Shown here: one piece after another, positions 4,754-28,497 of the stretch
Position numbering within the stretch: the first letter of the stretch is position 1
Layout of the letters: every line of letters begins with the position of its first letter
IMG/VR virus record: IMGVR_UViG_2737471834_000009
Length of the DNA: 33,255 bases
Source of the DNA: a virus
Taxonomy: Duplodnaviria; Heunggongvirae; Uroviricota; Caudoviricetes
Strand: one strand, 5' to 3'
The notes under the pieces: model-generated
Told to the model about the DNA's origin: nothing
The model's database searches: none
Seen by the model: only the letters and a program-made list of their open reading frames with translations
Program-made: the position numbers and the translations under genes

Positions 4754-4811
4754 AAAAAGGGCGGCAGAGCAGTCACGGAGTAAAACTGATACCGCCAAAC
4801 GTCACCAGAAA
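4754..4811 (-). ncRNA. dicF: DicF small RNA (ftsZ-targeting sRNA) with intrinsic terminator
   Basis: Minus-strand sequence TTTCTGGTGACGTTTGGCGGTATCAGTTTTACTCCGTGACTGCTCTGCCGCCC followed by a T-run; GGCGG...CCGCC terminator hairpin; located between ydfC and dicB as in the Qin prophage. Confidence 0.8.
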
Positions 4812-11183: not shown

Positions 11184-11660
11184 ATGCAAGAAATCAAAGA
11201 AAATATCAGGCAACAGCTTTACGGGTTTTATATTGCTTATGATTTGTGGCTGAAGAACGGGGCAAAACCCGGCGGAGTGTTTTCTCAAAATTATGGTTTA
11301 TGCGCCAATCTTTTCGATTATCTCACATTAATTGGTACCCCCTGTGAGGCAGCGCTGGAGCAATTACACGCTGATTTCAGAAGTGCCGGGCTGAATGAGG
11401 CGTTGCCGTTTAACGAGGGTAAAGAGCATTACCATGAAGAAAGAGGGCACAACATGTGCCATATGAATCCGGCACGAGTGGCGTGGGTCAGGGCGCAGAC
11501 AGGGCAGCCAGCGCCGGAAGGACTGGTTAAAGCGGTGCGCTTCTATGAACAGGTTAAGCGTGAAAATCCGCCAGTCGAAACCGGAGCATGGAAAGACGCT
11601 GTTGACTGGGTTCTCGAAGAGGCTTGTCAGGCTGTAAACATTCGCATCAAAGGAGAGTGA
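11184..11660 (+). CDS. hypothetical protein ending IRIKGE
   Basis: 158-aa ORF; the last six codons are encoded by junction element copy 2; SD is separated from the ATG by a GAAA-tetraloop hairpin. Confidence 0.6.
   Translation: MQEIKENIRQQLYGFYIAYDLWLKNGAKPGGVFSQNYGLCANLFDYLTLIGTPCEAALEQLHADFRSAGLNEALPFNEGKEHYHEERGHNMCHMNPARVAWVRAQTGQPAPEGLVKAVRFYEQVKRENPPVETGAWKDAVDWVLEEACQAVNIRIKGE
11639..11657 (+). repeat. junction element copy 2 (CATTCGCATCAAAGGAGAG)
   Basis: Encodes the C-terminal IRIKGE of the upstream gene and the RBS of the downstream gene. Confidence 0.8.
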
Positions 11661-11662
11661 GA

Positions 11663-12154
11663 ATGCAAATTTCACCGGTTACTCTTCGTGTTGCGAAGGC
11701 GTTTATATCCAGACATCACCGACACAATAAACCACCTGTTGGGCATAAATTCAGCATTGGTCTGATAAATGATGCCGGAGAATTGATAGGTGTGGCGACA
11801 GCTGGTCGACCTGTTGCACGACATTTGGACGATGGATTAACGCTTGAAGTAAATCGCACATGTACCACAGGAGAACGCAACGCTAACAGCGCGCTTTATG
11901 GTGCTGTCTGGCGAGCAGCAAAAGCTATGGGTTATCAACGTTGTATTACGTACACCCAGGCAGATGAATCAGGAGCATCTCTTCGCGCAGCTGGTTTTGT
12001 TCGTGTGAAAGAGCTTCCTCCAAGAAAAAGCTGGGCGGAATCAAGCGTCGCCTTGCGGAGTAAACGCGATCCGGTCGGAAACGGTGGTGTTCCTCGTGTG
12101 CTCTGGGAAATCAGGAGAATGAGTACCACTGGCATTCGCATCAAAGGAGAGTGA
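11663..12154 (+). CDS. hypothetical protein ending IRIKGE (possible small alpha/beta enzyme-like fold, unassigned)
   Basis: 163-aa ORF MQISPVTLRVAKAFISRHHRHNKPP...; translationally coupled to both neighbours; terminal codons encoded by junction element copy 3. Confidence 0.6.
   Translation: MQISPVTLRVAKAFISRHHRHNKPPVGHKFSIGLINDAGELIGVATAGRPVARHLDDGLTLEVNRTCTTGERNANSALYGAVWRAAKAMGYQRCITYTQADESGASLRAAGFVRVKELPPRKSWAESSVALRSKRDPVGNGGVPRVLWEIRRMSTTGIRIKGE
12133..12151 (+). repeat. junction element copy 3 (CATTCGCATCAAAGGAGAG)
   Basis: Same 19-mer; followed by TGA then ATATG start of the next gene. Confidence 0.8.
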
Positions 12155-13242: not shown

Positions 13243-13322
13243 TCTGGCCTGAGGCATTCACAACGGCAGGAATCGCGATGGCGGTGGCGCTGGTGGTGTA
13301 TTCGATTTGCCGTTGGGGTTAA
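13239..13322 (+). CDS. possible 27-aa hydrophobic peptide, translationally coupled to the upstream gene
   Basis: ATGA overlap with the upstream stop; product MIWPEAFTTAGIAMAVALVVYSICRWG; strong terminator immediately downstream. Confidence 0.3.
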   Translation: MIWPEAFTTAGIAMAVALVVYSICRWG

Positions 13323-13330
13323 CAAACAAA

Positions 13331-13358
13331 AACCCCGGATTGATGGTCCGGGGTTTTT
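13331..13358 (+). terminator. intrinsic terminator (CCCCGGA-loop-TCCGGGG followed by T5)
   Basis: Perfect 7-bp stem with a T-run; A-run upstream, so it may act in both directions. Confidence 0.7.
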
Positions 13359-13639
13359 GAAGGAAACAAAACAGAAACAACAATTGCCGTTACCTGTTGT
13401 TACCATGGCAAGTAAACGTATCTCAGGCGAGCGCATTGCGCCGTTCTGACGCAGATAAATTAGCCTGGATAGAAGGTGCTGGCAATAAAAAATAGCGTTT
13501 TCTTATCGGTGTCGGTAAGATTGCTGCGGGTGCTTGAGGCTGTCTGCCTCAGGCATGCCACTGTAAGGCAGACAGAGAAAAGCCCCAGTTAACATTATGC
13601 GTCCGGCAAGACGCTTAACATTAATCTGAGGCTCAATCT

Positions 13640-13852
13640 ATGAACGGCAAATCTAGGTTAGCCTCTTACGCGCCGAAAGGCAAGGAGAAGCAGGCTATGA
13701 AGCAGCAAAAGGCGATGTTAGTCGCCCTGATCGTCATCTGTATTACCGTCATTGTGACGGCACTGGTAACGAGGAAAGACCTCTGCGAGGTACGAATCCG
13801 AACCGGCCAGACGGAGGTCACTGTCTTCACAGCTTACGAACCTGAGGAGTAA
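13640..13852 (+). CDS. Mok-like reading frame (in-frame N-terminal extension of Hok)
   Basis: 70-aa ORF containing the hok frame, as in chromosomal mok/hok loci. Confidence 0.55.
   Translation: MNGKSRLASYAPKGKEKQAMKQQKAMLVALIVICITVIVTALVTRKDLCEVRIRTGQTEVTVFTAYEPEE
13697..13852 (+). CDS. hok: Hok/Gef family type I toxin
   Basis: 51-aa product MKQQKAMLVALIVICITVIVTALVTRKDLCEVRIRTGQTEVTVFTAYEPEE is near-identical to remembered HokD/RelF; mRNA leader has the tac-like hairpin GCTTGAGGCTGTCTGCCTCAGG. Confidence 0.85.
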   Translation: MKQQKAMLVALIVICITVIVTALVTRKDLCEVRIRTGQTEVTVFTAYEPEE

Positions 13853-13995
13853 GAGACCAGGCGGGGGAGAAATCCCTCGCCACCTCTGATGTGTCAGGCA
13901 TCCTCAACGCACCCGCACTTAACCCGCTTCGGCGTTTTTTCCGTTGATTAACTCTAGTTATTAGAGAACCGAACTTTTATTGATGGGGCAGGGAG

Positions 13996-14388
13996 ATGAA
14001 GAAACTTGTTTTAGTCGCAGGTGTAATGATTGCAACAGTAATGTTGGGAGGGTGTGCAGCAAAGGTCGATCCAGCGTTGAAAGCAGAAGCAATGAAGCCA
14101 CTAACATGTAATGATGAAAAGCAATGTGACTTTTATTGGAAACGAGCGCAATTCTGGTTGGCTAATAATTCCTCATGGAAAATTCAAACGGCGACAGACA
14201 CGCTAATTTCCACTTATAATCCCTCTCCAAATAGTCCATTCCTCGCTTATCAAGTGAGTAAAATGCCAAATGAAGATGGATCCTCAAGAATTTTCATCAA
14301 GCCTTTTTGCGATAATATGTTTGGCTGTCAACCAAACCCCTATCAGGCAGTTGTTTCCTTTAAAAACTTCGTTAAAACAGGGCAGTAG
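13996..14388 (+). CDS. putative lipoprotein (moron)
   Basis: Signal peptide with lipobox MLGGC, four further cysteines; followed by an intrinsic terminator. Confidence 0.7.
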   Translation: MKKLVLVAGVMIATVMLGGCAAKVDPALKAEAMKPLTCNDEKQCDFYWKRAQFWLANNSSWKIQTATDTLISTYNPSPNSPFLAYQVSKMPNEDGSSRIFIKPFCDNMFGCQPNPYQAVVSFKNFVKTGQ

Positions 14389-14586
14389 TGTATAGCTTGG
14401 ACGATAAATTATTAGTGAAAACGCCGTAAACCCTCACCCAATGTGGACTAAGCCTATCAAACATGACTGTGATGATTAGTCCGTAGTTGTTGCCTATGAA
14501 ATCTGGATTGAGTCAGGGTTTAATCCAATAATTATTCTATCGTTCCTTTACAAGTCCGGTATATTACTTTCAGTTTGTTTTAGCAT

Positions 14587-14612
14587 ACCCGCTTCGGCGG
14601 GTTTTGTTTTTT
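14587..14612 (+). terminator. intrinsic terminator (ACCCGC-TTCG-GCGGGT plus T-run)
   Basis: Perfect 6-bp stem, TTCG loop, TTTTGTTTTTT. Confidence 0.7.
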
Positions 14613-17285: not shown

Positions 17286-17361
17286 GGCCCTTTAGCTCAG
17301 TGGTGAGAGCGAGCGACTCATAATCGCCAGGTCGCTGGTTCAAATCCAGCAAGGGCCACCA
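17286..17361 (+). tRNA. tRNA, anticodon CAU (ileX/ileZ-like tRNA-Ile2; tRNA-Met not excluded)
   Basis: Manual cloverleaf: acceptor GGCCCTT/AAGGGCC, anticodon loop CTCATAA, T-loop TTCAAAT, CCA encoded; close to remembered ileX. Confidence 0.8.
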
Positions 17362-17362
17362 A

Positions 17363-17439
17363 CCGCCACTAGCTCATCAGGAAAGAGCGTCAACCCTTTA
17401 AGTTGAGTGTGCGAGGTTCGAGTCCCCGGTGGCGGTCCA
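17363..17439 (+). tRNA. atypical tRNA, anticodon loop CCTTTAA (anticodon UUU, Lys-like, with C at position 33)
   Basis: Manual cloverleaf: acceptor CCGCCAC/GTGGCGG (C1-G72), D-loop with GG, T-loop TTCGAGT, CCA encoded; isotype uncertain. Confidence 0.55.
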
Positions 17440-17441
17440 GT

Positions 17442-17517
<76 letters not shown>

Positions 17518-17520
17518 TAT

Positions 17521-17595
<75 letters not shown>

Positions 17596-17801: not shown

Positions 17802-17826
17802 CGCCCGCTTTTGCGGGTTTTTCTTT
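17802..17826 (+). terminator. intrinsic terminator-like hairpin upstream of the lysis cassette
   Basis: CGCCCGC-TTTT-GCGGG followed by a T-run. Confidence 0.55.
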
Positions 17827-28475: not shown

Positions 28476-28497
28476 AACCGCTTCGGCGGTTTTTTTT
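28476..28497 (+). terminator. intrinsic terminator-like hairpin before the tape measure gene
   Basis: AACCGC-TTCG-GCGGTT followed by T7. Confidence 0.55.

What the first reader, a model, noticed from the sequence alone, without database searches (positions are those of the whole stretch)
13480..13945. hok/mok type I toxin locus, with an apparently weakened 3' hairpin
The Hok toxin ORF is preceded by a leader carrying a tac-like hairpin (GCTTGAGGCTGTCTGCCTCAGG) and a second complementary segment (GGCAGACAGAG), as in hok/sok loci. An antisense Sok RNA is expected opposite roughly 13560-13640 but I could not map its promoter confidently. The 3' hairpin at 13921-13940 (CCGC-TTCG-GCG) looks like a 2-nt-deleted copy of the terminator at 14587-14612. 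No relBE pair is adjacent, unlike the K-12 Qin arrangement.
Basis: partly seen in the sequence, partly recalled or inferred. Interest (0 to 1): 0.5.

Follow-up and report, generated by a model that had tools for sequence, protein, structure and literature searches.

The report
Prophage hok/mok/sok toxin-antitoxin locus
This is an ordinary, complete copy of the well-known hok/sok toxin-antitoxin module carried by lambda-like prophages of E. coli; its weak 3' hairpin is the scar left where a small lipoprotein gene cassette was joined onto the module's terminator.

Summary
Window 13516-13940 holds a complete hokD/hokW-type hok/mok/sok type I toxin-antitoxin module. The parts found are: hok promoter -10, tac 5' end, metastable hairpin, anti-SD box, mok (70 aa) with hok (51 aa) in frame, the 3' protective stem-loop and the fbi box. 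An antisense Sok gene lies at 13648->13578. Its -10 and -35 hexamers are identical to those of sokW, whose promoter was mutated in published experiments.

Support comes from Rfam (111.7 bits), Pfam HOK_GEF (1e-22), a full-length fold that closes 5' end onto fbi, and covariation in 45 homologues.

The module matches 4710 of 5426 complete E. coli genomes, where it is annotated hokD. It is 91% identical to the characterised hokW-sokW locus of phage 933W/Sp5.

The 3' hairpin really is crippled: -3.1 kcal/mol against about -12 for the intact form. It is the left junction of a 665-bp cassette carrying a 130-aa lipoprotein gene. The cassette ends in the intact terminator copy (14587-14612). This junction occurs in 254 of 5426 genomes and always carries the same GG loss.

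Whether hok transcripts read through into the lipoprotein gene is untested. This is a known system of low interest.

The parts
13327..13359 (.). Bidirectional terminator-like hairpin (13-bp perfect stem, T/A runs on both sides) that insulates the hok module from upstream transcription
   Evidence: I6, 13 nt, 100% complementary.
13516..13521 (+). hok promoter -10 (TAAGAT), with the inferred transcription start at G13528. The -35 is poor, as expected for a weak constitutive promoter.
   Evidence: In alignment A1 the same position reads TAGAAT, TACAAT, TATAAT or TACTAT in homologues, 6 nt upstream of the invariant GGGTGC. This is an inference; no start site was mapped here.
13528..13539 (+). tac element: the 5' end of hok mRNA (GGGUGCUUGAGG)
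   Evidence: It pairs with fbi in the full-length minimum-energy fold. It is nearly invariant in 45 homologues, with 98.3% of cells paired (helix 1).
13528..13560 (+). Metastable 5' hairpin of the nascent transcript (tac paired with the segment immediately downstream)
   Evidence: -22 kcal/mol, z -4.3. The role is taken from the R1 model (PMC9841398).
13528..13702 (+). hok mRNA leader matching Rfam RF01794 (tac stem, Sok-target hairpin, mok and hok translation-initiation regions)
   Evidence: 111.7 bits, E 7.7e-25, full model length.
13581..13588 (+). ucb / anti-SD box (AGCCCCAG). It pairs with the mok SD in the closed form and with the 5' end in the open form.
   Evidence: Full-length fold and 63-nt leader fold; helix 3.
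13578..13648 (-). Sok antisense RNA gene: a 14-nt single-stranded 5' tail covering the mok start codon, a long hairpin, then a U tract
   Evidence: Coordinates transferred from the sokW misc_RNA of 933W through alignment A1. Fold -29.9 kcal/mol, z -5.2.
13655..13683 (-). Sok promoter: -35 TTGCCT (13683->13678), 17-nt spacer, -10 TAACCT (13660->13655)
   Evidence: The hexamers are identical to those of 933W/Sp5. The sokW 'pro-less' mutant changes exactly this -10 (primers YO-421/422; text). They are conserved in nearly all loci.
13628..13631 (+). mok Shine-Dalgarno sequence (GAGG)
   Evidence: Read directly from the sequence. Invariant to nearly invariant in A2. Sequestered in the full-length fold.
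13640..13852 (+). mok reading frame (70 aa). It is in frame with hok and shares its stop codon, as in mokW of 933W.
13697..13852 (+). hok toxin gene (51 aa, differing at 3 of 51 residues from K-12 HokD)
   Evidence: Pfam PF01848 1.2e-22; phrog_251 'MokW-like host killing' 5e-32. The K-12 HokD sequence is the variant MKQQKAMLIALIVICLTV... listed.
13860..13881 (+). GC-rich stem-loop just after the stop codon. It is the counterpart of the terminal stem of the processed (active) hok mRNA that protects it from 3' exonucleases.
   Evidence: Helix 15: 96.6% paired, 3 pairs with changes on both sides. The role is taken from R1 mutagenesis (PMC9841398).
13902..13914 (+). fbi (fold-back inhibition) box CCUCAACGCACCC, complementary to the 5' end
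13922..13940 (+). Truncated terminator hairpin (ACCCGC-TTCG-GCG followed by T6). GG is missing from the 3' arm, leaving a 3-bp stem.
   Evidence: -3.1 kcal/mol, z -0.09. Not called by the terminator scan. The same sequence is found in every copy that carries the cassette.
13935..14599 (+). 665-bp inserted cassette (130-aa lipoprotein ORF 13996-14388 plus about 200 bp of non-coding DNA), bounded by the 13-bp direct repeat ACCCGCTTCGGCG
   Evidence: Loci without the cassette run from the hok terminator straight into the sequence found at 14600 onwards. The cassette is in 255 genomes and the junction in 254.
14587..14612 (+). Intact terminator copy (ACCCGCTTCGGCGGGT + TTTGTTTTTT). It is the first strong terminator downstream of hok on this strand.
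   Evidence: no other hairpin plus T-run between 13941 and 14586.

Best explanation
Window 13516-13940 is a complete, probably functional hok/mok/sok type I toxin-antitoxin module of the prophage hokD/hokW lineage. It sits in the nin-like region of a lambdoid prophage, between the replication genes and DUF968-RusA-Q.

Inferred mechanism, taken from the R1 and hokW paradigms:
1. A weak constitutive promoter makes a hok mRNA of about 410 nt or longer.
2. While it is being made, a 5' metastable hairpin keeps it silent.
3. In the full-length RNA the 5' end (tac) pairs with fbi (13902-13914), and the anti-SD box covers the mok SD. The RNA is then untranslatable and Sok cannot bind it.
4. 3' trimming removes fbi. 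The 5' end then captures the anti-SD box, mok is translated, and hok is translated by coupling.
5. The short-lived Sok RNA (13648->13578) pairs over the mok start and blocks this. When Sok supply stops, Hok inserts in the inner membrane and kills or lyses the cell.

Shown here, in silico only: every sequence and structure element is present, conserved and covarying.

The weak 3' hairpin is not decay of the module. It is the junction where a 665-bp lipoprotein cassette was recombined onto hok at a terminator sequence that both carried. Two G's of the 3' arm were then lost. The intact terminator now lies at 14587-14612. Transcripts that pass the crippled hairpin would run about 670 nt further, through the lipoprotein gene, and would still fold back 5' end onto fbi.
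For: - Family and structure: Rfam RF01794 111.7 bits; Pfam HOK_GEF.
- Relatives: 99.8% identical DNA is annotated hokD in the same gene context. The locus is 90.7% identical to 933W hokW/mokW/sokW, which carries an annotated Sok RNA.
- Experiment on a relative: hokW-sokW has been shown to be a working toxin-antitoxin pair, and its sok -10 is identical to the one here (PMC8621323).
- Folds: the full-length minimum-energy fold closes nt 1-12 on fbi and sequesters the mok SD (z -5.3). The same closure appears in a modelled 1085-nt read-through RNA.
- Covariation in 45 homologues: 91.5% of cells paired against about 40% for slid controls, and 30 pairs with changes on both sides against 7-13.
- Hairpin energies: -3.1 against -12.7 and -11.8 kcal/mol.
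- Ancestral arrangement: the commonest one runs from the intact hok terminator directly into the sequence found at 14600 onwards in the window.
- Junction: it is identical in at least 55 viral-contig copies and present in 254 of 5426 genomes, against 255 genomes with the cassette.
- Origin: an 85%-identical lipoprotein homologue in a context without hok is preceded by the undeleted ACCCGCTTCGGCGGGTTTTTGCGTTG.
- Integrity: hok and mok are intact in 59 of 60 cassette-linked loci.
Against: - Nothing here measures RNA or toxicity. The promoters, the Sok ends and 3' processing are all transferred from homologues.
- Chromosomal hok loci of K-12 and other strains were reported unable to mediate post-segregational killing (summarised in bioRxiv 10.1101/2025.08.07.668861). 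An intact sequence therefore does not guarantee activity.
- The order of events (recombination first, GG loss later) rests on one distant relative (L200).
- If the crippled hairpin fails to terminate, the kinetics of 3' processing that activates hok mRNA could differ from the paradigm in ways that cannot be predicted here.
- The structure used for the covariation count was derived from the window sequence itself, which favours it on the 'cells paired' measure.
Confidence: 0.85

Rival explanations
1. The GG loss is adaptive. It switches off the hok terminator so that the constitutive hok promoter drives a bicistronic hok-lipoprotein mRNA. The lipoprotein moron is thereby expressed in lysogens, and the long 3' extension may also retune activation of hok mRNA.
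For: - No sigma-70-like promoter was found between 13941 and 13995.
- The extended -10-like TGATAGGAT seen upstream of distant lipoprotein homologues (L200-L202) is not present here.
- The GG-less junction is fixed in all close copies.
- No other terminator lies before 14587.
- The fold-back of 5' end onto fbi is retained in the read-through model.
Against: - Fixation is equally explained by a single ancestral event inherited with the cassette.
- The promoter scan is crude.
- Early phage transcription or an unrecognised promoter could express the gene.
- There are no expression data.
Confidence: 0.25
2. The locus is an inactive remnant, like the hok loci of E. coli K-12. The damaged 3' end is part of its decay, and the module no longer kills or is no longer regulated.
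For: Chromosomal hokA/B/C loci were reported unable to mediate killing, and K-12 hokD has lost its whole leader. The terminal hairpin is clearly weakened.
Against: - Every other element is intact and identical or nearly identical to the functional hokW-sokW.
- ORFs are intact in 59 of 60 cassette-linked copies.
- The functional hokW locus lacks this terminator hairpin altogether.
- In R1 mutagenesis, 19 of 22 loss-of-function 3'-UTR substitutions hit the inner stem-loop, which is intact here, and not the terminator.
Confidence: 0.12
3. The similarity between the two hairpins is a coincidence between two unrelated GC-stem/UUCG terminators, not a duplication or insertion.
For: UUCG-loop terminators are common. 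Two more loosely similar ones occur in the window, at 17803 and 28476.
Against: - The 13-nt exact repeat extends to 17 of 19 identity.
- Loci without the cassette join the two halves seamlessly.
- Cassette and junction co-occur in 255 and 254 genomes respectively.
Confidence: 0.02

Closest known systems
hokW-mokW-sokW of Stx2 phages 933W / Sp5 (AF125520; Takada et al. 2021, PMC8621323)
   Same: - 90.7% nucleotide identity over 13520-13924.
- The same leader with the extra GCGTCCGGCAAGACGC hairpin.
- mok in frame with hok (70 and 51 aa).
- Identical sok -35 and -10 hexamers, and the same fbi box.
- Carried by a lambdoid prophage.
- Experimentally a type I TA pair; Sok loss on prophage induction leads to Hok production.
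   Different: - In 933W the locus lies near the end of the linear map, next to a giant late-region ORF, not in the nin region.
- The Hok C-terminus differs (…VFVDYESEK).
- The Sok 5' tail / mok codons 2-5 differ.
- 933W has no terminator hairpin at all after fbi.
hokD (relF) of the E. coli K-12 Qin cryptic prophage
   Same: The Hok peptide differs at 3 of 51 residues. The 3' UTR is the same, with the protective stem-loop and fbi. The neighbourhood is the same lambdoid type (a DUF968-like gene and Q downstream).
   Different: - K-12 homology starts only about 15 nt upstream of the hok ATG. The tac element, mok start, Sok gene and both promoters are replaced by relBE.
- K-12 keeps the intact terminator, followed by rem.
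- The window has no relBE or rem.
hok/mok/sok (parB) of plasmid R1, the paradigm of the family
   Same: The same set of regulatory elements: tac, metastable hairpin, ucb, mok SD, Sok target, fbi and the 3' protective stem. The predicted closed/open switch is the same (PMC9841398; folds).
   Different: - It is plasmid-borne and mediates post-segregational killing.
- The sequence is only distantly related: HokW and R1 Hok are 44% identical according to PMC8621323.
- From my own knowledge, not checked here, mok in R1 is out of frame with hok. That arrangement does occur in some relatives fetched here, such as the Rac-like locus L006.
Rfam RF01794 'sok antitoxin (CssrC)'
   Same: Full-length match at 111.7 bits.
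   Different: The match is on the hok-mRNA strand and ends at the hok AUG. As applied here, the model therefore describes the hok leader, not the antisense RNA itself.

Membership tests
[quoted passage not shown] | Small hydrophobic toxin of the Hok/Gef family (about 50 aa) | tested here: met
   PF01848 at 79.7 bits against a cut-off of 22; phrog_251 5e-32; differs at 3 of 51 residues from HokD.
[quoted passage not shown] | Overlapping upstream mok frame with its own SD and start codon, through which hok is translated | tested here: met
   ATG 13640 with GAGG at 13628-13631, 70 codons, the same layout as annotated mokW. Translational coupling itself is not testable here.
[quoted passage not shown] | cis-encoded antisense Sok RNA gene opposite the mok initiation region, with a promoter and a terminator hairpin | tested here: met
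   -35 TTGCCT, 17-nt spacer, -10 TAACCT, identical to sokW. The 71-nt RNA folds at -29.9 kcal/mol, z -5.2, with a free 5' tail. Its expression was not tested.
[quoted passage not shown] | Conserved hok mRNA leader structure (tac stem, Sok-target hairpin) | tested here: met
   RF01794 at 111.7 bits against a gathering score of 59; covariation in helices 2 and 3.
[quoted passage not shown] | Long-range tac/fbi pairing between the 5' end and the 3' UTR, with the anti-SD box covering the mok SD | tested here: met
   Present in the minimum-energy fold. 98.3% of cells paired in 45 homologues, with one pair changed on both sides and several G-C to G-U changes.
[quoted passage not shown] | Stable stem-loop that becomes the 3' end of the processed, active mRNA | tested here: met
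   13860-13881: 9 bp, 96.6% paired, 3 covarying pairs. This is the counterpart of the R1 stem hit by 19 loss-of-function substitutions.
[quoted passage not shown] | Intrinsic terminator hairpin closing the full-length mRNA just after fbi | tested here: not met
   Only a 3-bp stem remains, at -3.1 kcal/mol and z -0.09, and the scan does not call it. The functional hokW locus also lacks this hairpin, so it is typical of the family but evidently not indispensable.
[quoted passage not shown] | Toxicity of Hok and its neutralisation by Sok | not testable with these tools
   Shown only for the 91%-identical hokW-sokW (PMC8621323).
relBE-hokD operon arrangement (K-12 Qin) | relB and relE immediately upstream of hok, replacing the hok leader | tested here: not met
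   No relB or relE homologue in the window. The full leader is present instead.

The most novel reading that the evidence does not exclude
The two-base loss in the hok terminator is a selected switch. It fuses the toxin-antitoxin transcript to a lipoprotein moron, so the always-on hok promoter expresses the lipoprotein in lysogens. The extra 670-nt 3' tail also changes how and when hok mRNA is trimmed into its active form. This would be a natural example of a type I TA module rewired as an expression platform for a neighbouring gene.
Probability: 0.2. Interest if true: 0.35.

Novelty: already known. Interest (0 to 1): 0.15.

Why it matters
It matters little beyond correct annotation. RefSeq marks only 'hokD' at this locus; the mok frame, the Sok RNA gene and the RNA switch elements go unannotated, and they can be placed to the base here.

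The one point of modest interest is evolutionary. The hok module (13520-13934) behaves as a cassette whose edges coincide with its own transcription signals. Its terminator sequence is shared with other phage modules and serves as a recombination joint. At least five kinds of natural 3' end lack the canonical hairpin, and one of them belongs to the experimentally functional hokW. The terminal hairpin is therefore dispensable for the family, which is useful to know when judging whether a hok locus is intact.

Tried and rejected
- The generic sigma-70 scan found neither the hok nor the sok promoter, because both have weak hexamers. They were placed instead by homology to annotated or mutated sites in 933W/Sp5.
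- My first ORF coordinates for hok were off by one, and a first script used a wrong ATG offset. Both were corrected.
- I looked for the function of the 130-aa lipoprotein. There were no Pfam or NCBIfam hits, only a PHROG of unknown function, and all homologues are 'hypothetical'. The AlphaFold model is good (pLDDT 84), but Foldseek against the PDB gave only weak matches: Flpp3 and the BamC N-domain, E >= 0.013, TM < 0.5. The afdb50 library was unavailable. Its function remains unknown.
- I considered an alternative terminator hairpin using AACGC/GCGUU. It is only -6 kcal/mol with a large loop, and it competes with fbi, so I rejected it as a real terminator.
- I considered whether 13304-13314 and 13375-13391, which are complementary to the sok start region (I8 and I5), mean anything. 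They are short matches of 8-11 nt with no conservation evidence, so I treated them as chance.
- I rejected coincidence between unrelated terminators; see the rival explanations.

Full report
**What is in the sequence**

The region 13480-13945 was read directly. The second complementary segment GGCAGACAGAG is at 13567-13577. A 70-codon ORF (13640-13852) contains, in the same frame, a 51-codon ORF starting at ATG 13697. The 51-aa product matches Pfam HOK_GEF at 79.7 bits, against a cut-off of 22, and PHROG 251 'MokW-like host killing'. Rfam's RF01794 covers 13528-13702 on the plus strand over its full length, at 111.7 bits against a gathering score of 59. That match is on the hok-mRNA strand and ends at the hok AUG, so it validates the leader structure rather than the antisense RNA as such.

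**How common it is**

- The 466-bp stretch matches 4710 of 5426 complete E. coli genomes, with up to nine places per genome. It is annotated 'hokD'.
- The best hit is 99.8% identical and has the same neighbourhood as the window: hokD, a 130-aa hypothetical protein, DUF968, RusA, antiterminator Q, four tRNAs and lysis genes.
- It occurs in 101 deposited phage genomes. These include 933W and VT2-Sakai/Sp5, where mokW, hokW and a SokW antisense RNA are annotated at 90.7% identity.
- Takada et al. (PMC8621323) showed that hokW-sokW is a working type I toxin-antitoxin pair and that Sok loss on prophage induction leads to HokW production.
- A 2026 preprint catalogues 44,248 Hok homologues and reports enrichment in prophages.

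This is therefore a known system in a known kind of place.

**Mapping the parts**

*Sok RNA.* Alignment with 933W, K-12 and other loci transfers the annotated SokW RNA to window 13648->13578 on the minus strand. That RNA folds into a 14-nt free 5' tail covering the mok start codon, a long hairpin and a U tract (-29.9 kcal/mol, z -5.2).

*Sok promoter.* It is -35 TTGCCT (13683->13678), a 17-nt spacer, and -10 TAACCT (13660->13655). Both hexamers are identical to those of 933W. The primers used to make the sokW 'promoter-less' mutant replace exactly this -10 (with the text). Reading the mutation from the primers is my inference.

*hok promoter.* Its -10 (TAAGAT, 13516-13521) lies where homologues have TAGAAT, TACAAT or TATAAT, 6 nt before the invariant GGGTGC. 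This places the start at about 13528 (inference).

**The RNA switch**

The R1 model, as summarised in PMC9841398, has three states. The nascent RNA is silenced by a metastable 5' hairpin. The full-length RNA is closed by tac/fbi pairing, with the mok SD covered by an anti-SD box. The 3'-processed RNA is open. All three are encoded here.

- The first 33 nt fold at -22 kcal/mol.
- The first 63 nt form the tac stem that Rfam models (-32.7 kcal/mol).
- The 414-nt full-length RNA has, in its minimum-energy fold, nt 1-12 paired with CCUCAACGCACCC (13902-13914) and AGCCCCAG (13581-13588) paired with the mok SD (z -5.3).

I mapped that structure onto an alignment of 45 non-identical homologues from Escherichia, Kluyvera, Citrobacter, Erwinia and viral contigs. 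The results were:

| Measure | Structure | Slid controls |
|---|---|---|
| Cells that form a standard pair | 91.5% | about 40% |
| Pairs with changes on both sides | 30 | 7-13 |

The tac/fbi helix is 98.3% paired but mostly invariant. The GC stem-loop after the stop codon (13860-13881) covaries at three pairs. In R1, 19 of 22 loss-of-function 3'-UTR substitutions hit the corresponding stem, and that stem is intact here. One caveat applies: the structure was derived from the window sequence, which favours it on the 'cells paired' measure.

**The 3' hairpin**

ACCCGCTTCGGCG+T6 (13922-13940) and ACCCGCTTCGGCGGGTTTT (14587-14605) are a direct repeat 665 bp apart.

| Hairpin | Fold energy (kcal/mol) | Note |
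|---|---|---|
| Truncated copy, 13922-13940 | -3.1 | z -0.09, no better than shuffles |
| Downstream copy, 14587-14612 | -12.7 | |
| Intact copy directly behind hok in strain R1 | -11.8 | |
| Window copy with GG restored in silico | about -10.6 for the stem | |

'Weakened' is therefore correct.

The comparison of 3' ends in about 140 loci explains the weakening. The commonest arrangement is hok-fbi-intact terminator, followed directly by TTTTGTTTTTTCCTGGCATTCTGGTTTACAATTCGCACGC. That is exactly what follows the second copy in the window. The window thus carries a 665-bp insert between the two copies, holding a 130-aa lipoprotein ORF (13996-14388).

- In complete E. coli genomes the cassette is found in 255 genomes and the junction in 254.
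- In viral contigs, every close copy of the lipoprotein gene that is preceded by this hairpin has the GG-less form, with minor T-run variation.
- An 85%-identical lipoprotein homologue in a phage without hok is preceded by the undeleted ACCCGCTTCGGCGGGTTTTTGCGTTG, and the upstream homology continues.

My reading is that hok and the lipoprotein gene were joined by recombination at a terminator sequence both carried, and that GG was lost afterwards or in the donor. It is an inference, and the order of events rests on one relative.

**Does the weak hairpin matter?**

- hok and mok are intact in 59 of 60 cassette-linked loci.
- Several other natural 3' ends lack the hairpin, among them the functional hokW of 933W, where homology ends just after fbi.
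- No other hairpin plus T-run lies before 14587. Read-through RNA would therefore be about 1085 nt, and its predicted fold still closes 5' end onto fbi.
- No promoter-like site precedes the lipoprotein gene. The extended -10-like motif of distant homologues is absent here.

A bicistronic hok-lipoprotein transcript is thus plausible but unproven. I give it about 0.2-0.25.

**Context and the K-12 comparison**

K-12 hokD shares the sequence from 15 nt upstream of the hok ATG through the intact terminator. Upstream of that point it has relBE instead of the leader, mok start and sok. The window has no relB, relE or rem. A strong bidirectional terminator (13327-13359) insulates the module on its upstream side. 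Most homologues diverge upstream of 13520, inside the hok -10, and downstream at or just after the hairpin. The mobile unit is therefore about 13520-13934.

**Verdict**

The system is already known, and the odd hairpin is explained as a recombination scar. Interest is low. The only open question is whether the scar creates a hok-lipoprotein co-transcript.

Noticed in passing
window 13996-14388 (cassette 13935-14599): A 130-aa predicted lipoprotein (signal peptide plus LGGC lipobox, four conserved cysteines) of unknown function. It has no Pfam or NCBIfam match and falls in phrog_16082. All homologues are 'hypothetical' and occur in Enterobacter, Pantoea and Phytobacter and in phage contigs. The AlphaFold model is confident (pLDDT 84), but Foldseek finds only weak matches: Flpp3 and the BamC N-domain, E >= 0.013, TM < 0.5. 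In distant relatives (L199, L200) it is followed by a second lipoprotein gene.
   Followed up: partly
window 13922-13940, 14587-14605, 28476-28494, 17803-17821; L200:780-805: The terminator ACCCGCTTCGGCGGGTTTT recurs behind unrelated phage genes. It marks the point where hok loci diverge from one another: there are 69 distinct 3' continuations in about 140 loci. It behaves as a shared module-boundary sequence at which lambdoid phages recombine.
   Followed up: partly
window 13635-13654: The most variable stretch of the whole hok transcript among 30 close homologues is 13644-13653 (1.0 bit per column against a mean of 0.25). It covers the start and 5' tail of Sok and mok codons 2-5 (MNGKS, MLNTC, MLYTR, MSHKC and others). 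This could be diversification of the Sok recognition tail that limits cross-talk between the several hok copies per genome. That idea was not tested.
   Followed up: partly
window 13835-13837 (A13836): The Tyr47 codon of hok lies in CUUACGAAC, in the loop of a small local hairpin. UACGAACC is identical to the anticodon loop and 3' stem start of tRNA-Arg(ACG) as I recall it. This fits the reported TadA A-to-I editing that recodes Tyr to Cys in hokB, hokC, hokD and hokE mRNAs (mentioned in bioRxiv 10.1101/2025.08.07.668861).
   Followed up: partly
window 13528-13702: Rfam RF01794 is named 'sok antitoxin' but matches the hok-mRNA (sense) strand and ends at the hok AUG. Automated annotation from it would put 'sok' on the wrong strand and make it too long.
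   Followed up: yes
window 13520: The upstream limit of homology for most hok loci falls inside the hok -10 hexamer. The window and about 14 genomes have TAAGAT with one upstream flank, while most others have TAGAAT with a different flank. The promoter's upstream half is therefore exchanged along with the neighbouring DNA.
   Followed up: no
window 14425-14525: The non-coding tail of the cassette holds about 67 bp that are absent from the ST131 copy (L003). The stretch is bounded by an imperfect 16-nt inverted repeat (14427-14442 / 14507-14522). It may be a small insertion or deletion, or a miniature element.
   Followed up: no
window 4759-4810 (-): A perfect full-length DicF sRNA gene (Rfam RF00039, 76.7 bits). 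The prophage therefore carries the cell-division inhibitor sRNA known from Qin-like prophages.
   Followed up: no
window 17286-17595 (+): A cluster of four tRNA genes just downstream of the Q antiterminator gene: CAT anticodon (called Met by ARAGORN, and annotated Ile in the near-identical RefSeq locus), Lys-TTT, Thr-TGT and Gly-TCC.
   Followed up: no
related loci: One cassette-linked locus combines the K-12-type relE-hokD junction (no mok or sok) with the GG-less hairpin and lipoprotein cassette. The 5' and 3' halves of the hok module therefore reassort independently.
   Followed up: no
window 11624-12154: An ORF matching PHROG 1384 'Mom-like DNA modification protein' (8.6e-43) lies in the nin-like region upstream of hok.
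   Followed up: no
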